Source of the DNA: an uncultured Rothia sp.
GTDB taxonomy: Bacteria > Actinomycetota > Actinomycetes > Actinomycetales > Micrococcaceae
Direction: 5' to 3'
Assembly (NCBI GenBank): GCA_946221065.1
Contig: CAMIIO010000002.1
Location: forward strand, 1,104-65,103
Length of the DNA stretch: 64,000 nt
Shown here: one piece after another, positions 25,859 through 63,094 of the stretch
Layout: each line of letters begins with the position of its first letter
Position numbering within the stretch: position 1 is the stretch's first letter
Translations under genes and position numbers: made by a program
The notes under the pieces: generated by a model
What the model was told of the DNA's origin: nothing
Seen by the model: the letters and a program-made list of their open reading frames with translations, nothing else
Database searches by the model: none

Positions 25859-25915
25859 AGTGAAATCTTATCTACTCTCCCCCGCTATCTCGTAAAACTT
25901 TCTCAACAGCGCGAT

Positions 25916-25980
25916 AATGTACCGCTTCTATTACACCGGCACGTCTTCTTGTGCATACGGTGTAATGGAAGCGGTACATT
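25916..25980. repeat. 23-bp inverted repeat (one mismatch) around a 19-nt spacer
   Basis: aatgtaccgcttctattacaccg …19 nt… cggtgtaatggaagcggtacatt. The core GCGGTAC is shared with the elements at 27447..27522. Confidence 0.55.
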
Positions 25981-26004
25981 AGCTCATCTCAGGGGAAAAC
26001 ACAG

Positions 26005-27303
26005 CTAGGAAAAGACCTTAGCAACCGCCTCAATCGTCTGCTGTACGCCCAAAATACCAAAAAGAACCGCGCAAATAGCCAGCACCGCATTGGTAAACCA
26101 GCCATTACGCCACTTGTCCGGGACCCGACGCGTATTCAAAATCCACAGCAGGGTTATCGCAAGAAACGGCATGAACAGTGCGCCCAGCACACCATACAGC
26201 AGGATTAAGAAAATCGGCTTATCAAGAAGTAGCAGCACCATCGGTGGGAAAGTCAGCCACAGCACATAGAACTTAAAGTACTTACCGCCGGTGCGGGTAT
26301 CGGGGTGCCCCGGTTCCAGATGACGAACCTTGCCCCAAAAATCCGCAAACATTAGTGATACGCCGGACCACACGCCAACGATGGAAGAAAACGACGCCGC
26401 CCAAAAGCCCACCAAGAACAGGTGACCGACCAGCACGCCATACCGCTCGTCCAAAACGCTTGCCAAATCCAGCAGGCCCTTATCGCTACTAGAGACTGCT
26501 ACACCCGCCGAGTACAGCACCTCAACACCAATAATCATGGTGGCGAGCACAAACACTCCGGAAATCACATAGGCAACCGTATTATCAAGCTGCATAACGC
26601 GCATGAACTTAGGCCGGTCCCAGCCCTTTTCACGAAGCCAGTACCCGTATGCCGCGAGGGTGATCGTTCCGCCGACGCCGCCGGCAAGAGCCAGCGTGTA
26701 CGTGATCGCGCCGTGAGGAATCAACGGGATAAGACCCTTGACGAGGCTGGGCAGGTTCGGGAGGGTAAAAATAGCCAGTCCCACAATCAGCACAAACATA
26801 ATGCCTACAAGTACGGCAGTAAACTTTTCAACCAGCTGATATTTACCAAACCACACAATCGTAAAACCCAGCAGCCCCATCACGATTGCCCAACACCACA
26901 GCGGTAGGAAGGGAAAAAGAACCGCTAGCGGCATGGCCGCCGAACTCATCGCCGTCGCGCCGTAGACGAATCCCCAAATCAAAATATAGGGGCCAAAATA
27001 TACGCTGGTCCACGCACCCAGGCTTCGCCAGCCTTCAAAGATGGTGCGCCCGGTTGCCAGGGTGTAGCGGGCGGCGCCCTCAACCAGCACAATCTTCATC
27101 AGCACACCCACAACGACCGTCCAGAGTAGAGCATATCCTACCTGGGAGCCGGCAACCAGTGTTGCGACGAGGTCTGGGGCGCCGATACCGGTTGCGGCAA
27201 CCACTAGGCCGGGGCCGATAATCTTATATTTTTCAATTTTTACTACTGGTTCATTCGGATCAACCAGGAATTCCGGAAATTTTTCCCGTGGGGATCGAGT
27301 CAT
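26005..27303 (-). CDS. Divergent NRAMP/SLC11-superfamily membrane transporter (substrate unknown)
   Basis: 432 aa with about 11 TM helices. Alignable by eye to the MntH at 44763, but the TM1 'DPGN' is replaced by 'GAPD…L' and the TM6 'MPH' by 'IPH'. Confidence 0.5.
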   Translation of the reverse strand: MTRSPREKFPEFLVDPNEPVVKIEKYKIIGPGLVVAATGIGAPDLVATLVAGSQVGYALLWTVVVGVLMKIVLVEGAARYTLATGRTIFEGWRSLGAWTSVYFGPYILIWGFVYGATAMSSAAMPLAVLFPFLPLWCWAIVMGLLGFTIVWFGKYQLVEKFTAVLVGIMFVLIVGLAIFTLPNLPSLVKGLIPLIPHGAITYTLALAGGVGGTITLAAYGYWLREKGWDRPKFMRVMQLDNTVAYVISGVFVLATMIIGVEVLYSAGVAVSSSDKGLLDLASVLDERYGVLVGHLFLVGFWAASFSSIVGVWSGVSLMFADFWGKVRHLEPGHPDTRTGGKYFKFYVLWLTFPPMVLLLLDKPIFLILLYGVLGALFMPFLAITLLWILNTRRVPDKWRNGWFTNAVLAICAVLFGILGVQQTIEAVAKVFS

Positions 27304-27446: not shown

Positions 27447-27522
27447 TGCGGTACGTACCGCAAAAAGTGTTTTATCGCGCAAAAAATGCGCGATAAAGTT
27501 CGTTTTGCGGTAGGTACCGCAA
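27447..27522. promoter_or_regulatory. Compound dyad element: three consecutive hairpins in the 5' region of the divergent NRAMP-like gene
   Basis: Palindromes gcggtacgtaccgc (27448–27461) and gcggtaggtaccgc (27507–27520) flank a 10-bp stem palindrome ttatcgcgca-aaaaa-tgcgcgataa (27472–27496). The whole forms a dyad of about 34 nt per arm. Confidence 0.5.
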
Positions 27523-27570
27523 AACGAACAGAGCAAACAGGGGTATAGGACAGACCGGGAGGAAACAGAA

Positions 27571-27616: not shown

Positions 27617-27688
27617 AGCCCCGACCGGGAATCGATCCCGGGACCTCCATCTTACCAAGATGGCGCTCTACCACTGAGCTATCGGGGC
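27617..27688 (-). tRNA. tRNA-Thr (anticodon GGT)
   Basis: The reverse complement folds as a cloverleaf: acceptor gccccga/tcggggc, D-arm gctc…gagc, anticodon stem ccatc/gatgg with loop ttGGTaa, and T-arm ccggg atcgatt cccgg. Confidence 0.9.
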
Positions 27689-40403: not shown

Positions 40404-40448
40404 CTAAAAGCGATCGGATACTTCAAGTATCCGATCGCTTTCAATCTC
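40404..40448. terminator. Bidirectional terminator between fur and the convergent hypothetical gene
   Basis: 14–15 bp perfect stem (aaagcgatcggatac / gtatccgatcgcttt) with loop ttcaa. On the minus strand it is followed by ttttagttta. Confidence 0.65.
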
Positions 40449-43575: not shown

Positions 43576-43612
43576 ATATGTGAGAAAGGTCCCCGGCATG
43601 TTACGCCGGGGA
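43576..43612 (+). terminator. Intrinsic terminator after 42147..43550
   Basis: 12–13 bp stem (aaaggtccccggc / gccggggaccttt) with loop atgttac, followed by ttttgggtg. Confidence 0.65.
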
Positions 43613-43653
43613 CCTTTTGGGTGAATTAGTGGCACTTAGTTAAGGTAAATCTT

Positions 43654-53394: not shown

Positions 53395-54309
53395 TCACAT
53401 GGATCGGCCAATCGTAATAGGGCCGGTAAGCCCCGTAGGTTCATCCGTAAAGTGCGCCTTAGAAAGACCCTTCCCCTCGTTTTCCTGCTTTTGTAACCAG
53501 TTCAAACGATCCAACAGAATACGGGTAGAGCCACCGGAGTACGGCAATTTATACATGGCAGCGGTGGTGGGCGTGGCATCCTTATTTTCAGCAGCAGCTT
53601 CAATGCTGTCAATAGCACCCTGCATAGTCTCCGCCATACGAGTAACAAACGTACATTCCACCGGCGTACCGTGGCCAGGCACAAACACGCGGTAACGATC
53701 CAACCCCGCCAAATCATTCAAGGTAGAAACCCACAGCTCCGGGTAGGCGTCATCAAAAGCCGGGTCAGACCCCTCCTCCACCAAATCACCGGTGAAGAGG
53801 ACGTCGTCAACCCCCACCAAAACATCTGAATCCGTGTGCGCCAAACCAAGGTAAAAGAGCGTGACGGCACGATCACCTAACTCAACGCGGGTAAAAGACG
53901 CCCGAGTTCCATCTCCGGGAAGAAGCTTATTAGGAACAACAAGATGTGTGTTCGGCCCTTGCATATGAGCCATCTCGGGTTCAAGAACTTCTACATAAGA
54001 ACGCTGCTGATCGCCATATAGTTCAATAGCGCGGGCGGCCCGGGGATGAGCCCAAAAATCTGTGGTGCCATCCGCCTCAAAAACCGCGTTACCCATAAAG
54101 CGATCAAAGTGTGCGTGAGTAGAGACAACTGCCAGAGGAAGTTCGGTGATGCGTCGGACGGCGCGCAAAATTTCTGCGCCCTGACGCGGGCCAGCACCCG
54201 TATCAACGACCATAGCTTTCTCTGCACCGAGAATAAGTCCAGAGTTCAAACGGTAGTTATCCGTGTTAATGAGGTAGACGCCGTCTGAGATTTCGATTGT
54301 ACGTGCCAT
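53395..54309 (-). CDS. MBL-fold metallo-hydrolase
   Basis: 'STHAHFDRFMGN' (HxHxDH-like) and downstream His/Asp ligands. Confidence 0.8.
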   Translation of the reverse strand: MARTIEISDGVYLINTDNYRLNSGLILGAEKAMVVDTGAGPRQGAEILRAVRRITELPLAVVSTHAHFDRFMGNAVFEADGTTDFWAHPRAARAIELYGDQQRSYVEVLEPEMAHMQGPNTHLVVPNKLLPGDGTRASFTRVELGDRAVTLFYLGLAHTDSDVLVGVDDVLFTGDLVEEGSDPAFDDAYPELWVSTLNDLAGLDRYRVFVPGHGTPVECTFVTRMAETMQGAIDSIEAAAENKDATPTTAAMYKLPYSGGSTRILLDRLNWLQKQENEGKGLSKAHFTDEPTGLTGPITIGRSM

Positions 54310-54427
54310 ATACCTTAACTTACTTGAGCCTTGGGTGATCGTTACTATTCTAGGTGCTTTATTCCGCTGTTGGGTGTTGATTCACAGAATCATGCGCGTT
54401 AGCCATGTACTTACCCCATGGCTTAAC

Positions 54428-55411
54428 ATGGGCACAGTGACTACTACTTCTTCTCAAGCCCTCCAATACTCGCCCTCCATAACCCCGCGCGGAAGATACG
54501 CGCCGTCGCCGTCCGGGGATTTGCATGTGGGCAATCTACGAACGGCATTATTAGCCTGGCTGTGCGCCCGAATCGCCGGTGGCAGCTTTGTGATGCGGGT
54601 AGAAGATTTAGACCGAGTTCAGGCGGGCGCGGCAGAACGACAATTTGCCGACCTAAAGGCCGTAGGACTGGACTGGGATGAAGAAGTGCTCTACCAGTCT
54701 TCTCGCGGTGAGGGATACAAGCAGGTTATTGCCTCGTTGCAGGAACAGGGACTGACCTACGAGTGTTTCTGCACTCGCAAAGAAATTCAATCGGCAACAA
54801 GCGCACCCCATGCGGCTCCGGGAGCATACCCCGGCACCTGCCGAGACCTCACACAAGAAGAACGCGAGCGCCGTCGACAAGAACGTCCACCCGCAATACG
54901 TTTACGTGCAGAACGTACCCAATACACGGTTGTTGATGAGTTACACGGCACATTTACCGGGGATGTGGATGATTTTGTGCTCTTACGCAATGACGGCACC
55001 CCTGCCTATAACCTTGCGGTGGTGGTGGACGATCATTTTCAGGGTGTGACACAGGTGGTTCGTGGCGATGACCTTTTGCCCTCGGCACCTCGACAGGCGT
55101 ATTTGGCGAACCTTTTAGGCTATGAGGCACCGCGATATGTGCATGTTCCGCTGGTACTCAACCGGGAGGGTAAACGTCTTGCCAAGCGAGATGGTGCCGT
55201 TACGCTGGGGCAGCTACACGATTTTGGGGTGAGCACGGGGAATCTTCTGGAGCTGATTTCCTCCTCAATTCCGCTGATAAAAATAGTGGACCCGACGACG
55301 GGCGTGCGGCGTTTTCCCCGAACAGCACAGGAAATGCTTGCGGTTTTTGAACGCGAGATGATGGATTTACAGCCGTGGGTTATTGATGAGAATGTTTTGA
55401 AGGGAGCGTAA
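54428..55411 (+). CDS. gluQ: Glutamyl-Q tRNA(Asp) synthetase (truncated GluRS paralogue)
   Basis: 'RYAPSPSGDLHVGNLRTALLAW' HIGH-region and a 'KLSKR'-like 'RLAKRDG'. Start moved to 54428 (the tracked ORF starts at 54335). Confidence 0.85.
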   Translation: MGTVTTTSSQALQYSPSITPRGRYAPSPSGDLHVGNLRTALLAWLCARIAGGSFVMRVEDLDRVQAGAAERQFADLKAVGLDWDEEVLYQSSRGEGYKQVIASLQEQGLTYECFCTRKEIQSATSAPHAAPGAYPGTCRDLTQEERERRRQERPPAIRLRAERTQYTVVDELHGTFTGDVDDFVLLRNDGTPAYNLAVVVDDHFQGVTQVVRGDDLLPSAPRQAYLANLLGYEAPRYVHVPLVLNREGKRLAKRDGAVTLGQLHDFGVSTGNLLELISSSIPLIKIVDPTTGVRRFPRTAQEMLAVFEREMMDLQPWVIDENVLKGA

Positions 55412-55418
55412 GGAAAAA

Positions 55419-56402
55419 GTGGCGTTAAATTTACGCGGTATGGCGGCAAGTGTTCCGCCTAAGCACCGGGGCACTGCGGCTTTTGTGTTGGTTATGGCGG
55501 GATCGCTGGGAATTCAGGCGTCCACGGCAATACTTTCTCATCTTTTTGTGGAGTTCTCTCCGATTGTGGTGGCTGGGCTGCGAATGGGAGCTGCGGCGCT
55601 TATTTTATTGGTGCTGGTACGGCCTAATCCTTTTGCTGTGAAACGCTCGGATTGGCCGCAGGTTATTGTGTATGCCCTGGTGGTTTCAGTGATGACGCTG
55701 GGGTATTTTCAGGCGGTACATTATTTACCGCTGGGTATTGTGGTAACGATTGAGTACCTGGGGGCTTTTGGGGTGTCTCTTTTGGGGGTGAGGCGTGTTC
55801 GCGATGGTCTGCTTTCCTTGGGCGCCCTGGTGGGAGTGGCTCTTATTGCCGGCCCGACCTTTGAGGCGGGGCAACTAGTGGGGTATTTCTTTGCGGCGTT
55901 AAGTGCTTTATGTATGGCCGGTTATACCCTTCTCTCAGCCAAAATGGGCTCGGGTTCTCAAGCGGTTTCTGGGTTAAAGGGGCTCACGCTCTCTATTGCA
56001 ATTTCTGCTCTTATTTTTTCGCCTTTTTCTGTTCCGGCTATTCCGCAGTTGAGCGGTGCGGACTGGGTACGGGTGCTCCTCGGCGGTGCCCTGGGTGTGG
56101 CATTTGCCTATTCGGCAGATTCTTTGGCTGGCAGGTTGACTTCGGCCGCCGTCATTGGGGTGTTGTTTAGCCTTGATCCGGTCAATGGTGCGCTCATTGG
56201 CATTCTGCTACTGGGTGAGGTGCTACCGTTTTCGGCCTATGTGGGCATTGTGGTAATTGCGATTTCCGGTGCGGTTTTGGTGTGGAAAACAAACCGTTCG
56301 GCTATTGAGCTGGGAACGAATACGGCGATGCTAGAGGCGATTGTTTCGACGAAGACCGGTCAAATCCCATTGGTGGAACAACGAGACTTTAAGAATAACT
56401 AA
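55419..56402 (+). CDS. EamA/DMT-family transporter
   Basis: 10-TM protein with two EamA repeats. Confidence 0.75.
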   Translation: MALNLRGMAASVPPKHRGTAAFVLVMAGSLGIQASTAILSHLFVEFSPIVVAGLRMGAAALILLVLVRPNPFAVKRSDWPQVIVYALVVSVMTLGYFQAVHYLPLGIVVTIEYLGAFGVSLLGVRRVRDGLLSLGALVGVALIAGPTFEAGQLVGYFFAALSALCMAGYTLLSAKMGSGSQAVSGLKGLTLSIAISALIFSPFSVPAIPQLSGADWVRVLLGGALGVAFAYSADSLAGRLTSAAVIGVLFSLDPVNGALIGILLLGEVLPFSAYVGIVVIAISGAVLVWKTNRSAIELGTNTAMLEAIVSTKTGQIPLVEQRDFKNN

Positions 56403-56517
56403 TTGATGTACTTAAGCTAGGCTTAATTTTGGCTAGTTTGAGTGATATTTGGTGCTTAAACTGCCCACACGGCATATTATTACCTAAATCACATTAATTT
56501 ATTGTTCAGGAGCTTCT

Positions 56518-58008
56518 ATGAGCGACTCTACCTTTCAAATCATCGCGCTCGTCATTTATTTTGCCGCCATGATCGCCATCGGACTCTGGGCACGCACCAA
56601 AAATACTAATCTCGACGATTACATCCTCGGTGGCCGTTCCCTCTCCCCCACCACCGCAGCACTCTCCGCAGGAGCTTCCGACATGTCCGGCTGGCTCCTC
56701 ATGGGTCTACCCGGTGCCCTCTACATCACCGGTCTTGCCCAATCATGGATGGCTATTGGCCTCACCATCGGCGCCTGGATCAACTGGAAAGTCGTGGCAC
56801 CGCGCCTGCGCACCTATACCGAAGTATCAAAAAACTCTGCCACCATTCCGGTGTTCTTCCACAACCGACTACGCGATAACACCAAAATCCTGCGCATCCT
56901 CACCTCACTCATCACCCTGATTTTCTTCACGTTCTACGCCTCTTCCGGAATGGTCGCCGGTGGCAAATTCTTCCAATCCTCCTTTGCAATGCCCTACCTC
57001 ACCGGTATGCTTCTTATCGCCGGCGTCACCGTGCTCTACACCCTCTTTGGCGGCTTCCTCGGCGCAAGCTACACCGACATGGTGCAGGGACTACTCATGC
57101 TCGCCGCGCTCTTGATTCTTCCCATTATTGCCATGTTCTACGTGGGCGGACCTGCCGGAGCGGTAGAAACCATCACCGACGTCAACCCCACAGCCCTCTC
57201 CTTCTTCTCCGGAACAACGCTCGTTGGCATTATCTCCACGGCGGCCTGGGGCCTGGGCTACTTCGGTCAACCGCACATCATTACCCGATTCATGGCACTG
57301 CGCAGCGTGCGTGACGCCGGCACCGCGCGTCGAATCGGTATTGGCTGGATGCTACTGACCGTTATTGGTGCCTGCTCCGCCGGACTCATCGGTATCGCCT
57401 ACTTTGCCAAGCACCCCGAGGCTCAACTGACCGACACAGCCAACGCCGAGTCCGTATTTCTGGATCTCTCCCAGCTACTACTGCACCCCTTCATCTCCGG
57501 ATTTATTCTCGCGGCGGTGCTGGCAGCTATTATGTCTACCCTCTCTTCACAGCTCATCGTGTGCTCTTCCGCCCTTGCCGAAGATATTTACGGCGCCGTC
57601 ACCGATAAGCGCCTGGCAGACCACCACGGGCTCTGGCTAGGGCGTGCAGGTGTGCTGGTAGTGGCTGTCATTGCCATGATCCTGGCATGGAACCCCGAAA
57701 GCTCCATCCTCTCCCTCGTGGCTTTTGCCTGGGCTGGCTTTGGTGCGGCTTTCGGCCCTATCGTGCTACTCTCGCTGTACTGGCGCAAGCTCACCAACTG
57801 GGGTGCGATCGCCGGAATCATCGCCGGAACCCTCACGGTTTTTATCTGGGGCAACATCGAGTCTCTCTCGACCACCATGTACGAGATCGTTCCCGGTTTT
57901 ATCGCCAACCTGCTGGTTGCCGTCCTCGTCTCGCTGGTTACATACAAGCCCAATGCTGAGATTGACGCGGAGTTTAATGCCGCGGTGGAAGCGGTTCACG
58001 CCCGCTAA
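56518..58008 (+). CDS. putP: Sodium:proline symporter (SSS family)
   Basis: 13-TM SSF. Conserved 'GG…GWLLMGLPG' N-terminus. CAGGAG RBS. Confidence 0.9.
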   Translation: MSDSTFQIIALVIYFAAMIAIGLWARTKNTNLDDYILGGRSLSPTTAALSAGASDMSGWLLMGLPGALYITGLAQSWMAIGLTIGAWINWKVVAPRLRTYTEVSKNSATIPVFFHNRLRDNTKILRILTSLITLIFFTFYASSGMVAGGKFFQSSFAMPYLTGMLLIAGVTVLYTLFGGFLGASYTDMVQGLLMLAALLILPIIAMFYVGGPAGAVETITDVNPTALSFFSGTTLVGIISTAAWGLGYFGQPHIITRFMALRSVRDAGTARRIGIGWMLLTVIGACSAGLIGIAYFAKHPEAQLTDTANAESVFLDLSQLLLHPFISGFILAAVLAAIMSTLSSQLIVCSSALAEDIYGAVTDKRLADHHGLWLGRAGVLVVAVIAMILAWNPESSILSLVAFAWAGFGAAFGPIVLLSLYWRKLTNWGAIAGIIAGTLTVFIWGNIESLSTTMYEIVPGFIANLLVAVLVSLVTYKPNAEIDAEFNAAVEAVHAR

Positions 58009-58012
58009 CCCT

Positions 58013-58075
58013 CGTTGAGGTGTCAAAAATATGCACTTTTCGCGCCGAAAAGTGCATATTTTTGACACCTCAACG
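58013..58075. repeat. Perfect 30-bp inverted repeat with a 3-nt spacer (63-nt palindrome), AT-rich, between putP and menB
   Basis: cgttgaggtgtcaaaaatatgcacttttcg-cgc-cgaaaagtgcatatttttgacacctcaacg. Verified base by base. It generates identical mirror ORFs on both strands (57766..58068 and 58020..). Confidence 0.85.
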
Positions 58076-58091
58076 CTTTAAGGTTGAAGGT

Positions 58092-59045
58092 ATGACTAAC
58101 CAACTTCCCGCACAAGTATCCGACATCTTTGACCCCCACCAGTGGCGTACCGTAGAGGGCTTCGAGGATTTTCAAGACATCACCTACCACCGCCAGGTAG
58201 AGCGCGATAACGACGGCGCAATTATTCGTGACCTGCCCACCGTGCGCATCGCCTTTGACCGCCCCGAAGTACGCAACGCCTTCCGCCCAGGCACCGTGGA
58301 CGAGCTCTACCGCGCCCTCGACCACGCCCGCATGACCTCCAACGTTGGCACGGTACTACTCACCGGCAACGGACCCTCCCCCAAAGACGGCGGCTGGGCA
58401 TTCTGCTCCGGAGGAGATCAGCGCATTCGTGGCCGCGACGGCTACCACTACGCCGACGGCGAGACCGCCGAAACCATTGACCCCGCCCGCGCCGGACGCC
58501 TGCACATCCTTGAAGTACAACGCCTGATTCGTACCATGCCTAAAGTGGTGGTGGCTCTAGTATCCGGTTGGGCTGCCGGTGGTGGACACTCCCTGCACGT
58601 GGTAGCAGACCTCACCATTGCCTCCGAAGAATACGGCAAGTTCAAACAAACCGATGCCACCGTGGGCTCCTTTGACGCCGGCTACGGCTCAGCCCTGCTG
58701 GCACGTCAGGTGGGACAAAAATTTGCCCGCGAAATTTTCTTCCTCGCCAAAGAGTACGATGCCCAGCGCATGTATGAGATGGGGGCAGTGAACGACGTCG
58801 TCCCGCACGAAGAGCTAGAAAAGAAAGGCTTGGAATACGCGGCGCACATTGCCCGGCAGTCCCCACAGGCTATTCGTATGCTCAAGTTCGCTTTCAACCT
58901 ACCCGATGACGGCATGGTGGGCCAGCAGGTCTTTGCAGGGGAGGCAACCCGCATGGCGTACATGACCGATGAGGCGGTAGAAGGTCGTGACGCTTTCTTG
59001 CAAAAGCGTGAACCCAACTGGACTGAATACCCCTACTATTTCTAG
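58092..59045 (+). CDS. menB: 1,4-dihydroxy-2-naphthoyl-CoA synthase
   Basis: Crotonase fold, 'GGGH…DLTIAS…' MenB motifs. Start at 58092 with a GAAGG RBS. The tracked ORF 58020 begins inside the palindrome. Confidence 0.93.
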   Translation: MTNQLPAQVSDIFDPHQWRTVEGFEDFQDITYHRQVERDNDGAIIRDLPTVRIAFDRPEVRNAFRPGTVDELYRALDHARMTSNVGTVLLTGNGPSPKDGGWAFCSGGDQRIRGRDGYHYADGETAETIDPARAGRLHILEVQRLIRTMPKVVVALVSGWAAGGGHSLHVVADLTIASEEYGKFKQTDATVGSFDAGYGSALLARQVGQKFAREIFFLAKEYDAQRMYEMGAVNDVVPHEELEKKGLEYAAHIARQSPQAIRMLKFAFNLPDDGMVGQQVFAGEATRMAYMTDEAVEGRDAFLQKREPNWTEYPYYF

Positions 59046-59092: not shown

Positions 59093-60328
59093 ATGACTAC
59101 TCCCTCTGCTTCTTTTGCCGGCTCCCTCACCCCGCTTAGTCCTCCCACGGCTCTTACCGAACACACCGTCGTCGTGGGAGGAGCAAGCACCCCGGCCGTT
59201 CCAGCTATCCTCCGCAGTTTTGAGCGCACTCTCTCGCAGGATTCGGAGGATCCGGCGCTGGTTGTCTCTACGTCCGGTTCGACGGGCGCGCCCAAACAGA
59301 CGGTGCTTTCCGCTCGGGCGTTACGTGCTTCGGGAAGGGCAACGGAGGAGTTCTCCGGGGTGCGTAACGCCCAATGGCTTCTGTGCCTACCCACGCACTA
59401 TGTGGCGGGGGCGCAGGTGCTAGCGCGTTCGGTGTTAGCCGGAACTTCCCCGGAGGTTATGCGGAATGTGAACTGTGGGGAGCGATTCACAGCGGAAGAT
59501 TTTGTGGCTACCTGCGAACAGATGACGGCACAGAATCGCATGGTTTCACTGGTTCCGGCACAGCTTCACACTCTCTATGAAGCCGCAACAGACTTACCCG
59601 AGGTTCTGCCGGCTCTACGCGAGTTTAACGGAATCCTTTTAGGGGGCGCACCGGCCCCCGCCGAGCTCCTTGCTACTGCCCGTCACGAAGGCCTGCGAGT
59701 ATTTACCACTTATGGAAGCGCGGAAACCTCCGGCGGGTGCGTGTATTCGGGTACGTCTCTGCCTGGAGTCAGCGTACATGTAGAAGGTAACTTCCCTGCC
59801 ACAGCTCAGGATCCGCAATCTCTTTGGCTCGGTGGAAACGTGGTGGCAAGCGGCTACCTCAATGACGCAGAACGTACCGCACAACGCTTCTTTATTGATA
59901 CTCACGGCACCTACTGGTATCGCACCGACGACGTAGGCTTTATCACCGAGAATAAATTCCAGGTAGCAGGCAGGGCTGACGACGTAATAATTACCGGGGG
60001 TGTAAAAGTCTCCCCCGGCCCCATTCGAGAAGCCCTCGAAACCCACCCTGCTGTGCGCGAGGCTCTGGTCTGCGGGGTTGACGACGCCCGGTGGGGCACA
60101 GCGGTGGTGGCGGCGGTCAGCGTTCGCGGCAACGCCGTCGATTCCACTCTCGTCGCAGAGACTACCCGGCAGGAGCTGGCACAGATCATTCAGCGACTTG
60201 AGCCTGCCCAGCGCCCTAAACTTATTGAGCTCTACCCCGCTTTTCCCACGCTCAGCACTGGAAAAACCGACCGGCGTGCGCTACAGAATGAGTTAGCTAC
60301 CACGTACCGCCGTCGGTGCTCGGGCTAA
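59093..60328 (+). CDS. menE: o-Succinylbenzoate–CoA ligase
   Basis: Short AMP-binding enzyme ('TSGSTGAPK', 'YGSAETSGG'). Position within the men cluster. Confidence 0.8.
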   Translation: MTTPSASFAGSLTPLSPPTALTEHTVVVGGASTPAVPAILRSFERTLSQDSEDPALVVSTSGSTGAPKQTVLSARALRASGRATEEFSGVRNAQWLLCLPTHYVAGAQVLARSVLAGTSPEVMRNVNCGERFTAEDFVATCEQMTAQNRMVSLVPAQLHTLYEAATDLPEVLPALREFNGILLGGAPAPAELLATARHEGLRVFTTYGSAETSGGCVYSGTSLPGVSVHVEGNFPATAQDPQSLWLGGNVVASGYLNDAERTAQRFFIDTHGTYWYRTDDVGFITENKFQVAGRADDVIITGGVKVSPGPIREALETHPAVREALVCGVDDARWGTAVVAAVSVRGNAVDSTLVAETTRQELAQIIQRLEPAQRPKLIELYPAFPTLSTGKTDRRALQNELATTYRRRCSG

Positions 60329-60414: not shown

Positions 60415-61332
60415 GTGGCAACACCTGCACAGTGGATTGAAGGGGCGCGTTTGCGCACCCTACCCCTCGCGATAGCACCTATTGTTGCCGGCTCCGCGGC
60501 CGCTTTTGAATATGGAAAGTTCATGCCCTTTCGCGCCTTTTTGGCATTATTAGTGGCGCTTTTCTTACAGATTGGTGTGAATTATGCCAATGATTATTCA
60601 GATGGGGTTAAAGGTACTGATGAGGTACGCGTTGGCCCGCTAAGACTCGTGGGATCCGGCGTGGCAAAACCTTTCCACGTTAAATACGCGGCTTTTGCGT
60701 GTTTTGGTTTCGCTATGCTCGCGGGCTTATGGCTTATTATTCTTTCGCAGCAGTGGTGGTTTCTTGCTATTGGGGCGTCCTCGGTCTTTGCCGCCTGGGG
60801 CTATACCGGAGGTAAACACCCATACGGGTATATGGGTTTAGGTGACCTCTTTGTTTTTGTGTATTTCGGGTTAGTGGCAACCCTGGGTACACTTTTTACT
60901 CAAACCGCGCACCTTACGCTTTCCGGCTGGGTTTTTGCGATAGTTATGGGCTTATTTTCGTGCGCGCTGTTAATGGCAAATAATGTGCGTGATATTCCTA
61001 CCGATCGCGAAGTCGGCAAGCTGACTATGGCGGTACGCTTGGGTAATGTATGGTCCCGGCGTGTTTACGCTCTAGAAATGATTCTTTCGCTGGTGCTTAC
61101 TGCTTTTCTTGTGCCAAAGAATCCGTGGTATATGCTCACCTTTATTCTGGTTGGCCCTATCCTGCATTCCTGCATGGTGGTACTTTCGGGGAAAAACGGT
61201 AAGGCCCTTATCCCTGTGCTAAAGCAAGCCGGGCTGGTGGCACTGACTTATAGCGTGCTGGTGGCGGTTGCCGCGTATTTGGGTACGCTCAGTATTTTTA
61301 TCCCAGAAGTAACGTATTTCACCGGCTACTAG
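60415..61332 (+). CDS. menA: 1,4-dihydroxy-2-naphthoate polyprenyltransferase (UbiA family)
   Basis: UbiA motifs ('NDYSDGVKGTD', 'NNVRDIPTDR'). 8–9 TM helices. Confidence 0.9.
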   Translation: MATPAQWIEGARLRTLPLAIAPIVAGSAAAFEYGKFMPFRAFLALLVALFLQIGVNYANDYSDGVKGTDEVRVGPLRLVGSGVAKPFHVKYAAFACFGFAMLAGLWLIILSQQWWFLAIGASSVFAAWGYTGGKHPYGYMGLGDLFVFVYFGLVATLGTLFTQTAHLTLSGWVFAIVMGLFSCALLMANNVRDIPTDREVGKLTMAVRLGNVWSRRVYALEMILSLVLTAFLVPKNPWYMLTFILVGPILHSCMVVLSGKNGKALIPVLKQAGLVALTYSVLVAVAAYLGTLSIFIPEVTYFTGY

Positions 61333-62161: not shown

Positions 62162-62269
62162 AGACAACAAAAAATCCGTACACCACTTGAGCGATTTATA
62201 CACCTGTAGAAGTGTACTTATGGCTCAAACGGTGTACGGATTCTTCGTACCTACTAGCTAGTCAGCGGC

Positions 62270-63094
<825 letters not shown>

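What the first reader, a model, noticed from the sequence alone, without database searches (positions are those of the whole stretch)
58013..58075. Perfect 63-nt palindrome (30-bp arms) between putP and menB
A 30/30-bp perfect inverted repeat with a 3-nt centre is far longer than expected by chance. It is far longer than a typical operator or an intrinsic terminator stem, and it is AT-rich in a GC-rich genome. It starts 5 nt after the putP stop and ends 16 nt before the menB RBS, and no T-run follows it. Possible roles are a very stable RNA hairpin that insulates or attenuates read-through into menB–menE–menA, an RNase processing site, a cruciform-forming or protein-binding site, or a remnant MITE-like element. 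It creates mirror-image spurious ORFs on both strands.
Basis: seen in the sequence. Interest (0 to 1): 0.55.

Follow-up and report, generated by a model that had tools for sequence, protein, structure and literature searches.

The report
Long perfect hairpin terminator after putP
The 63-base perfect palindrome is real, but it is most likely just an unusually long transcription terminator ending the proline-transporter gene putP, placed right before the separate promoter of the vitamin-K2 gene menB in a skin Rothia bacterium: an ordinary kind of element in an extreme form.

Summary
Window 58013-58075 is a 30/30 perfect inverted repeat with a 3-nt centre. Shuffled windows give arms of 9-14 nt at most, and eight independent metagenome assemblies carry the identical sequence. 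The host is a Rothia (Micrococcaceae).

The palindrome fills the slot just after the putP stop codon. In about six sister Rothia lineages that slot holds a canonical GC-rich terminator. Two lineages hold different ~30-nt-arm palindromes, and one holds nothing (14-bp spacer).

Its inner part is a textbook bidirectional-type intrinsic terminator: AAAAATAT, a 10-bp stem, a 3-nt loop, the stem's return, then ATATTTTT. Other terminators in this window are built the same way. A 12-bp perfect outer clamp is added and is not explained.

Three bases downstream lies TAAGGT. All 19 Rothia loci examined have a TAnnnT hexamer 7 nt (6 nt in one locus) before the menB ATG.

No second copy of the arm was found in the window, in 229 kb of Rothia loci, in 185,579 species-representative genomes, or in the plasmid, phage and viral collections. 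The source genome outside the window could not be searched.

Verdict: a lineage-specific, single-copy, long-stem terminator and insulator. Low novelty.

The parts
56518..58008 (+). putP (sodium/proline symporter); stop codon TAA at 58006-58008
   Evidence: TIGR02121 equivalog, E = 4.8e-201, 668.7 bits against a cut-off of 515.5
58013..58075 (+). Perfect 63-nt palindrome: 30-nt arms with centre CGC. As RNA it forms a 30-bp hairpin.
58013..58024 (+). Outer clamp, left half (CGTTGAGGTGTC). It pairs with 58064-58075 and contains the Shine-Dalgarno-like GAGGTG at 58017-58022.
   Evidence: read from the sequence. No other terminator in the window has such an extension outside its A/T tracts.
58025..58032 (+). 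A-tract AAAAATAT, upstream of the inner stem (the mirror image of the U-tract)
   Evidence: sequence. Same A-tract/stem/T-tract layout as the terminators at 1193-1229, 2599-2638, 40407-40441 and 43585-43617.
58033..58055 (+). Inner terminator hairpin: GCACTTTTCG, loop cgc, CGAAAAGTGC (10-bp stem, 3-nt loop)
   Evidence: -11.9 kcal/mol; 0 of 200 shuffles fold as well
58056..58063 (+). T/U-rich tract ATATTTTT (6 of 8 are T), immediately 3' of the inner stem. Inferred release site for putP transcripts.
   Evidence: sequence; the termination site itself is inferred
58064..58075 (+). Outer clamp, right half (GACACCTCAACG). Together with the two preceding T it forms TTGACA at 58062-58067, which lies only 11 nt from the -10-like box.
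   Evidence: sequence
58079..58084 (+). TAAGGT, a -10-like TAnnnT hexamer at -13 to -8 from the A of the menB ATG. Candidate promoter for a leaderless menB mRNA.
   Evidence: TAnnnT sits at the same position in 18 of 19 Rothia loci and 1 nt off in L042, although the upstream sequence is unalignable. TANNNT is the actinobacterial -10 consensus (PMC12288462).
58092..59045 (+). menB (1,4-dihydroxy-2-naphthoyl-CoA synthase), followed by menE (59093-60328) and menA (60415-61332)
   Evidence: NF006186 equivalog, E = 4.1e-168

Best explanation
The palindrome is the factor-independent transcription terminator of putP. It uncouples putP from the menB-menE-menA genes, which start from their own promoter immediately downstream.

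Proposed mechanism:
1. RNA polymerase transcribes past the putP stop codon.
2. The inner hairpin (58033-58055, 10 bp, -11.9 kcal/mol) folds while the AUAUUUUU tract (58056-58063) is in the RNA:DNA hybrid.
3. The transcript is released at about 58060-58064, as at any canonical terminator.
4. After release, the upstream A-tract pairs with the U-tract, giving a fully paired 3' end.
5. Polymerases that read through transcribe the right outer arm, so their RNA forms the full 30-bp helix, followed by CUUUAAGG. That helix could act as a second, U-poor ('I-shaped') terminator or pause site.

menB is then transcribed from the TAAGGT -10 box at 58079-58084, probably starting at or next to its ATG.

The perfect 12-bp outer clamp is most economically explained as a recent mutational extension of the terminator's own quasi-palindrome, by template switching during replication. 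Selection need not be invoked.

Shown: the anatomy, the position, the equivalence of this slot with canonical terminators in relatives, and single-copy status in the sequence available.
Inferred: that termination happens here, the exact release site, the leaderless menB start, and the origin of the clamp.
For: 1. Position. The hairpin starts 4 nt after the putP stop, on the sense strand.

2. Slot equivalence. Other Rothia lineages have a canonical terminator between the putP stop and menB:
- L050-56 and L075: AAGGCCCGGGCCGC..GCGGTCCGGGCCTT plus a T-rich tail.
- L136: AAAGCCCGCCGGTT..AACCGGCGGGCTTT.
- L138: GC-rich imperfect inverted repeat followed by TTTTG (read by eye; below the hairpin scan's threshold); L137: a GC-rich inverted repeat read by eye, followed by TCCTTTTCT, plus a second hairpin with 20-nt arms (19 pairs) that the scan did detect.
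- L130/L133: GCCCCGATCCGC..GCGGATCGGGGC plus T5.

3. Architecture. A-tract, 10-bp stem, 3-nt loop, stem, T-tract: the same as the window's other terminators at 1193, 2599, 40407 and 43585. The inner stem folds at -11.9 kcal/mol.

4. Long stems are normal in this genome.
- I3 (62167-62248) forms 39 pairs on the minus strand, 7 of them G-U, followed by UUUUUUGUUG, between convergent genes.
- I4 has 24-nt arms and lies 24 nt after a stop codon.
- I1 lies downstream of a tRNA gene.

5. menB has its own conserved -10-like box in every lineage, including those where a divergent 460-aa gene and a 307-bp spacer precede it.

6. It is not a repeat family in any sequence that could be searched.

7. Literature. 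Actinobacterial hairpins within 50 bp of the stop codon act as terminators, and TANNNT is the -10 consensus (PMC12288462). Template switching at quasi-palindromes extends and perfects arm identity (PMC7202029 and PMC3820800).
Against: - There are no transcript data; termination is inferred from sequence alone.
- The consensus terminator scan did not flag the site. My explanation, that the scan extends the stem up to 20 pairs and then finds no T-run, is an inference.
- The 12-bp outer clamp has no role in the canonical mechanism, and no other terminator in the window has one.
- The palindromes in the same slot in L042 and L043 have the opposite polarity (T-run 5' and A-run 3' of the inner stem). 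They are therefore not canonical terminators, so a shared 'long palindrome' function other than canonical termination is not excluded.
- The nearest lineage by menB (L044/L047) has no hairpin at all, so a terminator here is dispensable.
- Whether actinobacterial RNA polymerase terminates without a U-tract is disputed (Czyz 2014 against Ahmad 2020, both as cited in PMC12288462).
Confidence: 0.62

Rival explanations
1. It is a small mobile or selfish palindromic element (MITE-, REP- or REPIN-like) that inserted between putP and menB.
For: - Presence/absence across lineages: the spacer is 14 bp in L044-L049, 83 bp here, 84 bp in L043 and 148 bp in L042.
- The element is AT-rich relative to the genome.
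- The L042 and L043 palindromes are related to each other (about 69% by eye over the arms; blastn finds a 15-nt match at 93%) and have internal direct repeats, CGAGATCCTG x2 per arm.
Against: - No second copy at up to 3 mismatches in 64 kb.
- No match by blastn-short in 229 kb of Rothia sequence.
- The 18-mer core is absent from every actinobacterial genome among 185,579 species representatives; the 31 hits are single-strand chance matches in unrelated taxa.
- Absent from plasmids, phages and viral contigs.
- No target-site duplication: the flanks are CCCT and CTTT.
- There is no internal sequence between the arms.
- All lineages are about 80% identical in menB at the nucleotide level, so spacer differences are what ordinary divergence would give.

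Caveat: the source species itself is evidently not in the genome collection, because its own locus was not hit. Only a family with a high copy number (roughly 100 or more per genome) is made unlikely by the window alone.
Confidence: 0.08
2. It is a DNA-level protein-binding site (operator) or a cruciform that controls the menB promoter, since the right arm covers the -17 to -46 region.
For: - The palindrome ends 3 nt upstream of the conserved -10-like hexamer.
- The L042 palindrome is built from four copies of one decamer arranged as two direct then two inverted copies, like an array of half-sites.
- The ssDNA hairpin is very stable at -35.7 kcal/mol.
Against: - Sixty-three bp of unbroken perfect symmetry is several times longer than known operators.
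- The window's arm has no internal half-site repeat.
- The sequence is not conserved between lineages, and most lineages carry an ordinary GC-rich terminator or nothing at this distance from the same -10 box.
- No regulator gene is adjacent: the neighbours are GluQRS, an EamA transporter, putP, menB, menE, menA and DUF4229.
Confidence: 0.08
3. It is an RNA processing or stability element. On putP-menB read-through transcripts the 30-bp perfect helix is cut by RNase III, or it protects the putP 3' end from exonucleases, and this rather than termination is its selected role.
For: - A 30-bp uninterrupted A-form helix (-47.5 kcal/mol) exceeds the roughly 20-22 bp that RNase III needs (general knowledge).
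- This would give the outer clamp a role that termination does not.
- L042 and L043 keep stems of similar length without canonical U-tracts.
Against: - No transcript evidence.
- The test for strand-specific G-U pairing in the imperfect L043 palindrome was inconclusive: -41.6 against -42.1 kcal/mol, with 3 G-U pairs on each strand.
- This role is compatible with, and not exclusive of, the terminator explanation.
Confidence: 0.12

Closest known systems
Canonical (L-shaped) bidirectional intrinsic terminators
   Same: - Lies just after a stop codon.
- Has an A-tract, a stem, a short loop, the stem's return and a T-tract.
- Symmetric, so it could work in both directions.
- Same layout as the other terminators in this window.
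   Different: - A further 12 bp of perfect pairing lies outside the A/T tracts, giving a 30-bp stem with the U-tract buried inside it.
- The stem is only 40% GC.
- There is no convergent gene that would need the reverse direction.
Actinobacterial 'I-shaped' terminators (hairpin without a U-tail, within 50 bp of the stop codon; Unniraman 2001 and Ahmad 2020, as cited in PMC12288462)
   Same: The full 30-bp hairpin begins 4 nt after the stop codon and is followed by only three U (CUUUAAGG). The host is an actinobacterium.
   Different: That class was described for GC-rich mycobacterial hairpins. This one is AT-rich, perfect and much longer. The ability of such hairpins to terminate without a U-tract is itself disputed (Czyz 2014, as cited in PMC12288462).
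REP / REPIN / MITE-type intergenic palindromic repeats
   Same: A short intergenic hairpin-forming palindrome just after a stop codon, AT-rich relative to the genome, and present or absent between related lineages.
   Different: No other copy was found in any sequence searched, there is no target-site duplication, and no associated transposase gene was seen. The defining multi-copy feature is not met in the data available.
Quasi-palindrome template-switch products (PMC7202029, PMC3820800)
   Same: Perfect arm identity that extends beyond the functional core is what template switching at an imperfect inverted repeat produces.
   Different: This is a mechanism of origin, not a functional class. 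No ancestral imperfect state is available, because the nearest relatives are only about 82% identical in menB, so it cannot be tested here.

Membership tests
Canonical intrinsic (Rho-independent) terminator | Located shortly downstream of a stop codon, on the sense strand of the upstream gene | tested here: met
   The hairpin starts 4 nt after the putP TAA; the inner stem starts 24 nt after it.
Canonical intrinsic (Rho-independent) terminator | Stable stem-loop (about 5-14 bp, loop 3-8 nt) | tested here: met
   Inner stem of 10 bp with a 3-nt loop, -11.9 kcal/mol; 0 of 200 shuffles fold as well. The stem is only 50% GC.
Canonical intrinsic (Rho-independent) terminator | U-rich tract immediately 3' of the stem | tested here: met
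   ATATTTTT (6 of 8 are T) directly follows the inner stem at 58056-58063. This is not met for the full 30-bp stem, whose tail is CTTTAAGG. The consensus scan did not report the site.
Canonical intrinsic (Rho-independent) terminator | Transcript 3' ends map to the U-tract, and read-through is reduced | not testable with these tools
   No transcriptome data are available for this organism.
I-shaped actinobacterial terminator | [quoted passage not shown] | tested here: met
   The full hairpin 58013-58075 has the tail CUUUAAGG. The host is Rothia, by MenB homology. Definition from PMC12288462.
REP / REPIN / MITE repeat element | Many dispersed copies in the genome | tested here: inconclusive
   No other copy in the 64-kb window, in 229 kb of Rothia loci or in 185,579 species-representative genomes. 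The source genome outside the window is not in any searchable collection, because its own locus was not hit.
REP / REPIN / MITE repeat element | Terminal inverted repeats that flank internal sequence, plus a target-site duplication | tested here: not met
   The arms are separated by only 3 nt. The flanks CCCT and CTTT are not a duplication.
Palindromic operator | Short dyad (about 12-24 bp) conserved with its promoter, with a cognate regulator nearby | tested here: not met
   The dyad is 63 bp. The sequence is not conserved in any other lineage although the -10 box is. No regulator gene lies among the neighbours.
Leaderless-mRNA promoter (for menB, next to the palindrome) | TANNNT -10 hexamer about 6-8 nt upstream of the start codon, with no properly spaced Shine-Dalgarno sequence | tested here: met
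   TAnnnT lies at -13 to -8 in 18 of 19 loci and at -12 to -7 in L042. The G-rich run at -7 to -2 is too close to the ATG to be a normal SD. The transcription start itself is not testable here.
Rfam RNA families | Score at or above the family's gathering threshold | tested here: not met
   Only generic microRNA-precursor hairpin models matched, far below threshold (43.7 against 95 bits). The whole-window gathering scan found two tRNAs only.

The most novel reading that the evidence does not exclude
The ~30-nt-arm, AT-rich, near-perfect palindromes found in the same slot in three Rothia lineages (the window, L042 and L043) might be more than terminators. They could form a lineage-restricted class of long palindromes that keep themselves perfect and sit directly against the menB promoter. 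Such elements could work at the DNA level, as a cruciform or as an array of protein-binding half-sites (L042 carries four copies of CGAGATCCTG). Alternatively they could be RNase III-type processing sites. In either case their sequences would turn over rapidly while length and symmetry are maintained.
Probability: 0.1. Interest if true: 0.5.

Novelty: new member of a known kind. Interest (0 to 1): 0.2.

Why it matters
It matters little beyond annotation.
- It shows that a striking perfect palindrome can be an ordinary terminator core with a symmetric extension.
- It cautions that terminator finders which extend stems greedily will miss such sites.
- It suggests that menB in Rothia has its own, probably leaderless, promoter, so putP and the men genes should not be annotated as one operon.
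- The turnover of completely different hairpins in one conserved slot across Rothia species is a tidy small example of how fast terminators evolve.
- If the outer clamp turned out to be functional, these palindromes would be a convenient natural system for studying long-stem termination or RNA processing in Actinobacteria.

Tried and rejected
1. Dispersed repeat family. I searched the 30-mer and a 17-mer core in the window, an 18-mer core in the genome collection and in viral contigs, and the 91-bp region in plasmids and phages. I also ran blastn-short with all three palindromes against 229 kb of Rothia loci. Nothing beyond chance was found. The genome scan turned out not to contain the source species, so it does not count copies in the source genome.

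2. A shared TTTTATCG motif linking L042, L043 and window hairpin I1. It occurs twice in the window against 1.8 expected. Rejected as chance.

3. One arm as a relic of the start of the divergent 460-aa gene that lies between putP and menB in other Rothia. I tried this because each arm carries GAGGTG, 8 nt and then ATG. That gene starts MSEYTS with an unrelated upstream sequence. Rejected.

4. Strand-specific G-U pairing in the imperfect L043 palindrome, as a test of RNA-level against DNA-level selection. Both strands fold equally well. Inconclusive.

5. Within-species polymorphism as a test of constraint. All ten contigs are at least 99.95% identical across 1.6-7.5 kb. Uninformative.

6. TTGACA at 58062-58067 as a -35 box. 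It is 11 nt from the -10-like hexamer, which is the wrong spacing. Rejected.

7. Known RNA families. Only sub-threshold microRNA hairpin models matched.

8. Homology between the window palindrome and the L042/L043 palindromes. Only about 11 of 30 arm positions match, with a shared GAGGT near the outer end. Not significant.

Full report
**1. The observation**

Window 58013-58075 reads CGTTGAGGTGTCAAAAATATGCACTTTTCG-CGC-CGAAAAGTGCATATTTTTGACACCTCAACG. The arms are 30 nt, 100% complementary, with a 3-nt centre.

It is far beyond chance:
- The arm has no other match in the window at up to 3 mismatches, and none in 100 shuffles.
- The longest perfect hairpin arm in the real window is 30, and the next longest is 18. 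Twenty dinucleotide-preserving shuffles give maxima of 9-14.
- As RNA the 63-mer folds at -47.5 kcal/mol, z = -13.5. As single-stranded DNA in its flanks it folds at -35.7 kcal/mol.

It is not an assembly artefact. Contigs that encode the identical PutP and MenB come from several independent human skin and other metagenome assemblies made with different assemblers. The seven whose spacers were read out carry the identical 83-bp spacer, and all ten close-strain loci are at least 99.95% identical to the window. One of them (L008) ends at 58041, inside the palindrome, which is a typical assembly break.

The gene names are right: putP 56518-58008, menB 58092-59045, menE 59093-60328 and menA 60415-61332.

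- The palindrome ends 16 nt before the menB ATG, not before an RBS.
- The genome is only moderately GC-rich: 54%, against 43% for the palindrome.
- A T-run is present, but inside the right arm.

**2. Organism and comparative picture**

MenB homologues place the window in Rothia (Micrococcaceae). The best named hits are 'uncultured Rothia sp.' at 93% and Rothia sp. P6271 at 90%. No relative closer than 96% MenB identity is in the protein collection. All lineages recovered are about 80% identical to the window in menB at the nucleotide level, so no close outgroup exists.

The order EamA transporter, putP, menB, menE, menA is conserved wherever the contigs extend far enough to show it. What lies between putP and menB is not:

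| Lineage | Between the putP stop and menB |
|---|---|
| Window and identical strains | This palindrome (83-bp spacer) |
| L042 | A different perfect palindrome with 30-nt arms (148-bp spacer) |
| L043 | A related imperfect palindrome (84-bp spacer) |
| L044-L049 | Nothing (14-bp spacer) |
| L050-56, L075, L136, L138 | Ordinary GC-rich terminator hairpins with T-rich tails |
| L137 | A GC-rich hairpin plus a second hairpin with 20-nt arms |
| L130-135, L057, L059 | A canonical bidirectional terminator, then a divergent 460-aa gene, then a 307-bp spacer |

So the slot right after the putP stop nearly always contains a hairpin, with a different sequence in each lineage. In most lineages it is an unmistakable terminator.

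**3. Anatomy**

The palindrome has three layers:
- An outer 12-bp clamp: 58013-58024 paired with 58064-58075.
- AAAAATAT (58025-58032) paired with ATATTTTT (58056-58063).
- An inner 10-bp stem, GCACTTTTCG/CGAAAAGTGC, with the loop CGC (58033-58055).

The two inner layers are exactly the architecture of the other terminators in this window: A-tract, stem, loop, stem, T-tract. Examples are 1193-1229 (GAAAAATCCGCAAGA...TCTTGCGGATTTTTC), 2599-2638, 40407-40441 and 43585-43617. Each lies just after a stop codon, several of them between convergent genes.

The inner hairpin alone folds at -11.9 kcal/mol, and 6 of the next 8 bases are U. The consensus terminator scan did not flag it. I infer that it extends the stem up to 20 pairs and then finds no T-run.

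Very long stems are not unique here:
- I3 (62167-62248) forms 39 pairs on the minus strand, including 7 G-U pairs, and is followed by UUUUUUGUUG, between convergent genes.
- I4 (25915-25981) has 24-nt arms and lies 24 nt after a stop codon.
- I1 (27447-27529) lies downstream of a tRNA gene.

What is unique is the perfection, and the extra clamp outside the A/T tracts.

**4. The downstream side**

In 18 of 19 Rothia loci a TAnnnT hexamer sits at -13 to -8 from the A of the menB ATG. The variants are TAGAAT, TAAAAT, TAGACT, TAAGAT and, in the window, TAAGGT at 58079-58084. In L042 it is shifted by one base. Everything upstream of it is unalignable between lineages.

This holds whether menB is preceded by putP at 14 bp, by a terminator, or by a divergent gene. 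TANNNT is the actinobacterial -10 consensus, and the -35 element is often degenerate or absent (PMC12288462).

A -10 box 7 nt before the start codon, with no properly spaced Shine-Dalgarno sequence, is the geometry of a leaderless mRNA.

**5. Most likely function**

The palindrome is the putP terminator and an insulator for the men promoter. The mechanism and its evidence are set out in the best explanation (confidence about 0.6).

The outer clamp is not needed for that mechanism. The most economical account is a template-switch extension of the terminator's own quasi-palindrome, a known mutational process that perfects and extends inverted repeats (PMC7202029 and PMC3820800). This cannot be tested without a closer relative.

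**6. Rivals**

- *Mobile repeat element.* No second copy turned up in any search, and there is no target-site duplication. However, the source genome outside the window could not be searched, and its species is evidently not in the genome collection. Only a high-copy family is made unlikely.
- *Operator or cruciform at the menB promoter.* The palindrome abuts the -10 box, and L042's version looks like four half-sites. Against this, the sequence is not conserved, it is far longer than known operators, and no regulator gene is nearby.
- *RNase III or RNA-stability element.* This is compatible with the terminator reading and would explain the clamp, but it has no support. The strand-asymmetry test on L043 was inconclusive.

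**7. Comparison and novelty**

It behaves like, and meets the sequence criteria of, a canonical intrinsic terminator (inner core) and of an actinobacterial I-shaped terminator (full stem). It fails the structural criteria for REP/MITE elements and for operators. Rfam holds nothing like it beyond generic hairpin models scoring below threshold.

It is a new, extreme member of a known kind. Interest is low, about 0.2. The remaining curiosity is why three Rothia lineages keep ~30-bp near-perfect AT-rich palindromes in this slot.

Noticed in passing
window 58079-58084, and the same position in L042-L061, L075, L130-L138: A TAnnnT hexamer 7 nt upstream of the menB ATG is conserved in all 19 Rothia loci examined, while the rest of the upstream region is unalignable. 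menB is probably transcribed as a leaderless mRNA from its own promoter. A G-rich run follows the hexamer in most lineages.
   Followed up: partly
window 58017-58033 (+), mirrored at 58071-58055 (-): Each arm carries a strong Shine-Dalgarno-like GAGGTG, then 8 nt, then ATG. On the + strand this opens a 16-codon ORF (MHFSRRKVHIFDTSTL*) that ends at TAA 58079-58081, inside the -10-like box. The motif is buried in the stem and is not conserved in L042 or L043. A test for descent from the start of a lost divergent gene was negative. Probably coincidence.
   Followed up: partly
L042:2211-2278 and L043:2426-2495: Sister Rothia lineages carry different palindromes of similar size at the same site. 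L042's is perfect, with 30-nt arms, and is built from four copies of CGAGATCCTG (two direct, two inverted, at a 19-nt period). L043's is a diverged, imperfect version. In both, the T-run lies 5' and the A-run 3' of the inner stem, so they are not canonical terminators in either direction.
   Followed up: partly
window 62167-62248: This hairpin lies between convergent genes. It folds much better on the minus strand (39 pairs including 7 G-U, -47.2 kcal/mol, then UUUUUUGUUG) than on the plus strand (-35.6). That is a clear RNA-level signature of a very long-stem terminator for the minus-strand gene 62270-63046.
   Followed up: partly
window 27447-27529: A complex set of overlapping inverted repeats: 35-nt arms at 86% complementarity, plus a perfect 15-bp hairpin at 27498-27529 that competes with the right arm. 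It lies about 90 nt downstream of a minus-strand tRNA gene (27617-27688) and 144 nt upstream of the gene 26005-27303. It could be a tRNA terminator, or alternative structures of a leader. No Rfam family matches.
   Followed up: no
L130-L135, L057, L059 (e.g. L130:1033-2415): In some Rothia species a 460-aa gene on the opposite strand, with only a faint pentapeptide-repeat Pfam hit, lies between putP and menB. It is absent from the window's lineage. This is an indel of a whole gene at the same junction.
   Followed up: no
L044-L049 (e.g. L044:2484-2500): In the lineage nearest to the window by menB, putP and menB are only 14 bp apart: TAG, GTAGAATCGGTTCT, ATG. The menB -10-like box starts directly after the putP stop and no terminator intervenes. 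There the two genes are likely co-transcribed as well.
   Followed up: no
protein P0002: A 466-aa 'MenB' on a 1.75-kb ENA contig consists of a partial MenB fused to a second, nearly full MenB of a different lineage. It is probably a chimeric metagenome assembly.
   Followed up: no
L008 (Logan contig ERR10474906_137), aligned to window 53518-58041: The fetched L008 locus, cut at the record's coordinate 1, ends at window position 58041, three bases short of the palindrome centre. This is what an assembly-graph break at a perfect palindrome would look like.
   Followed up: no
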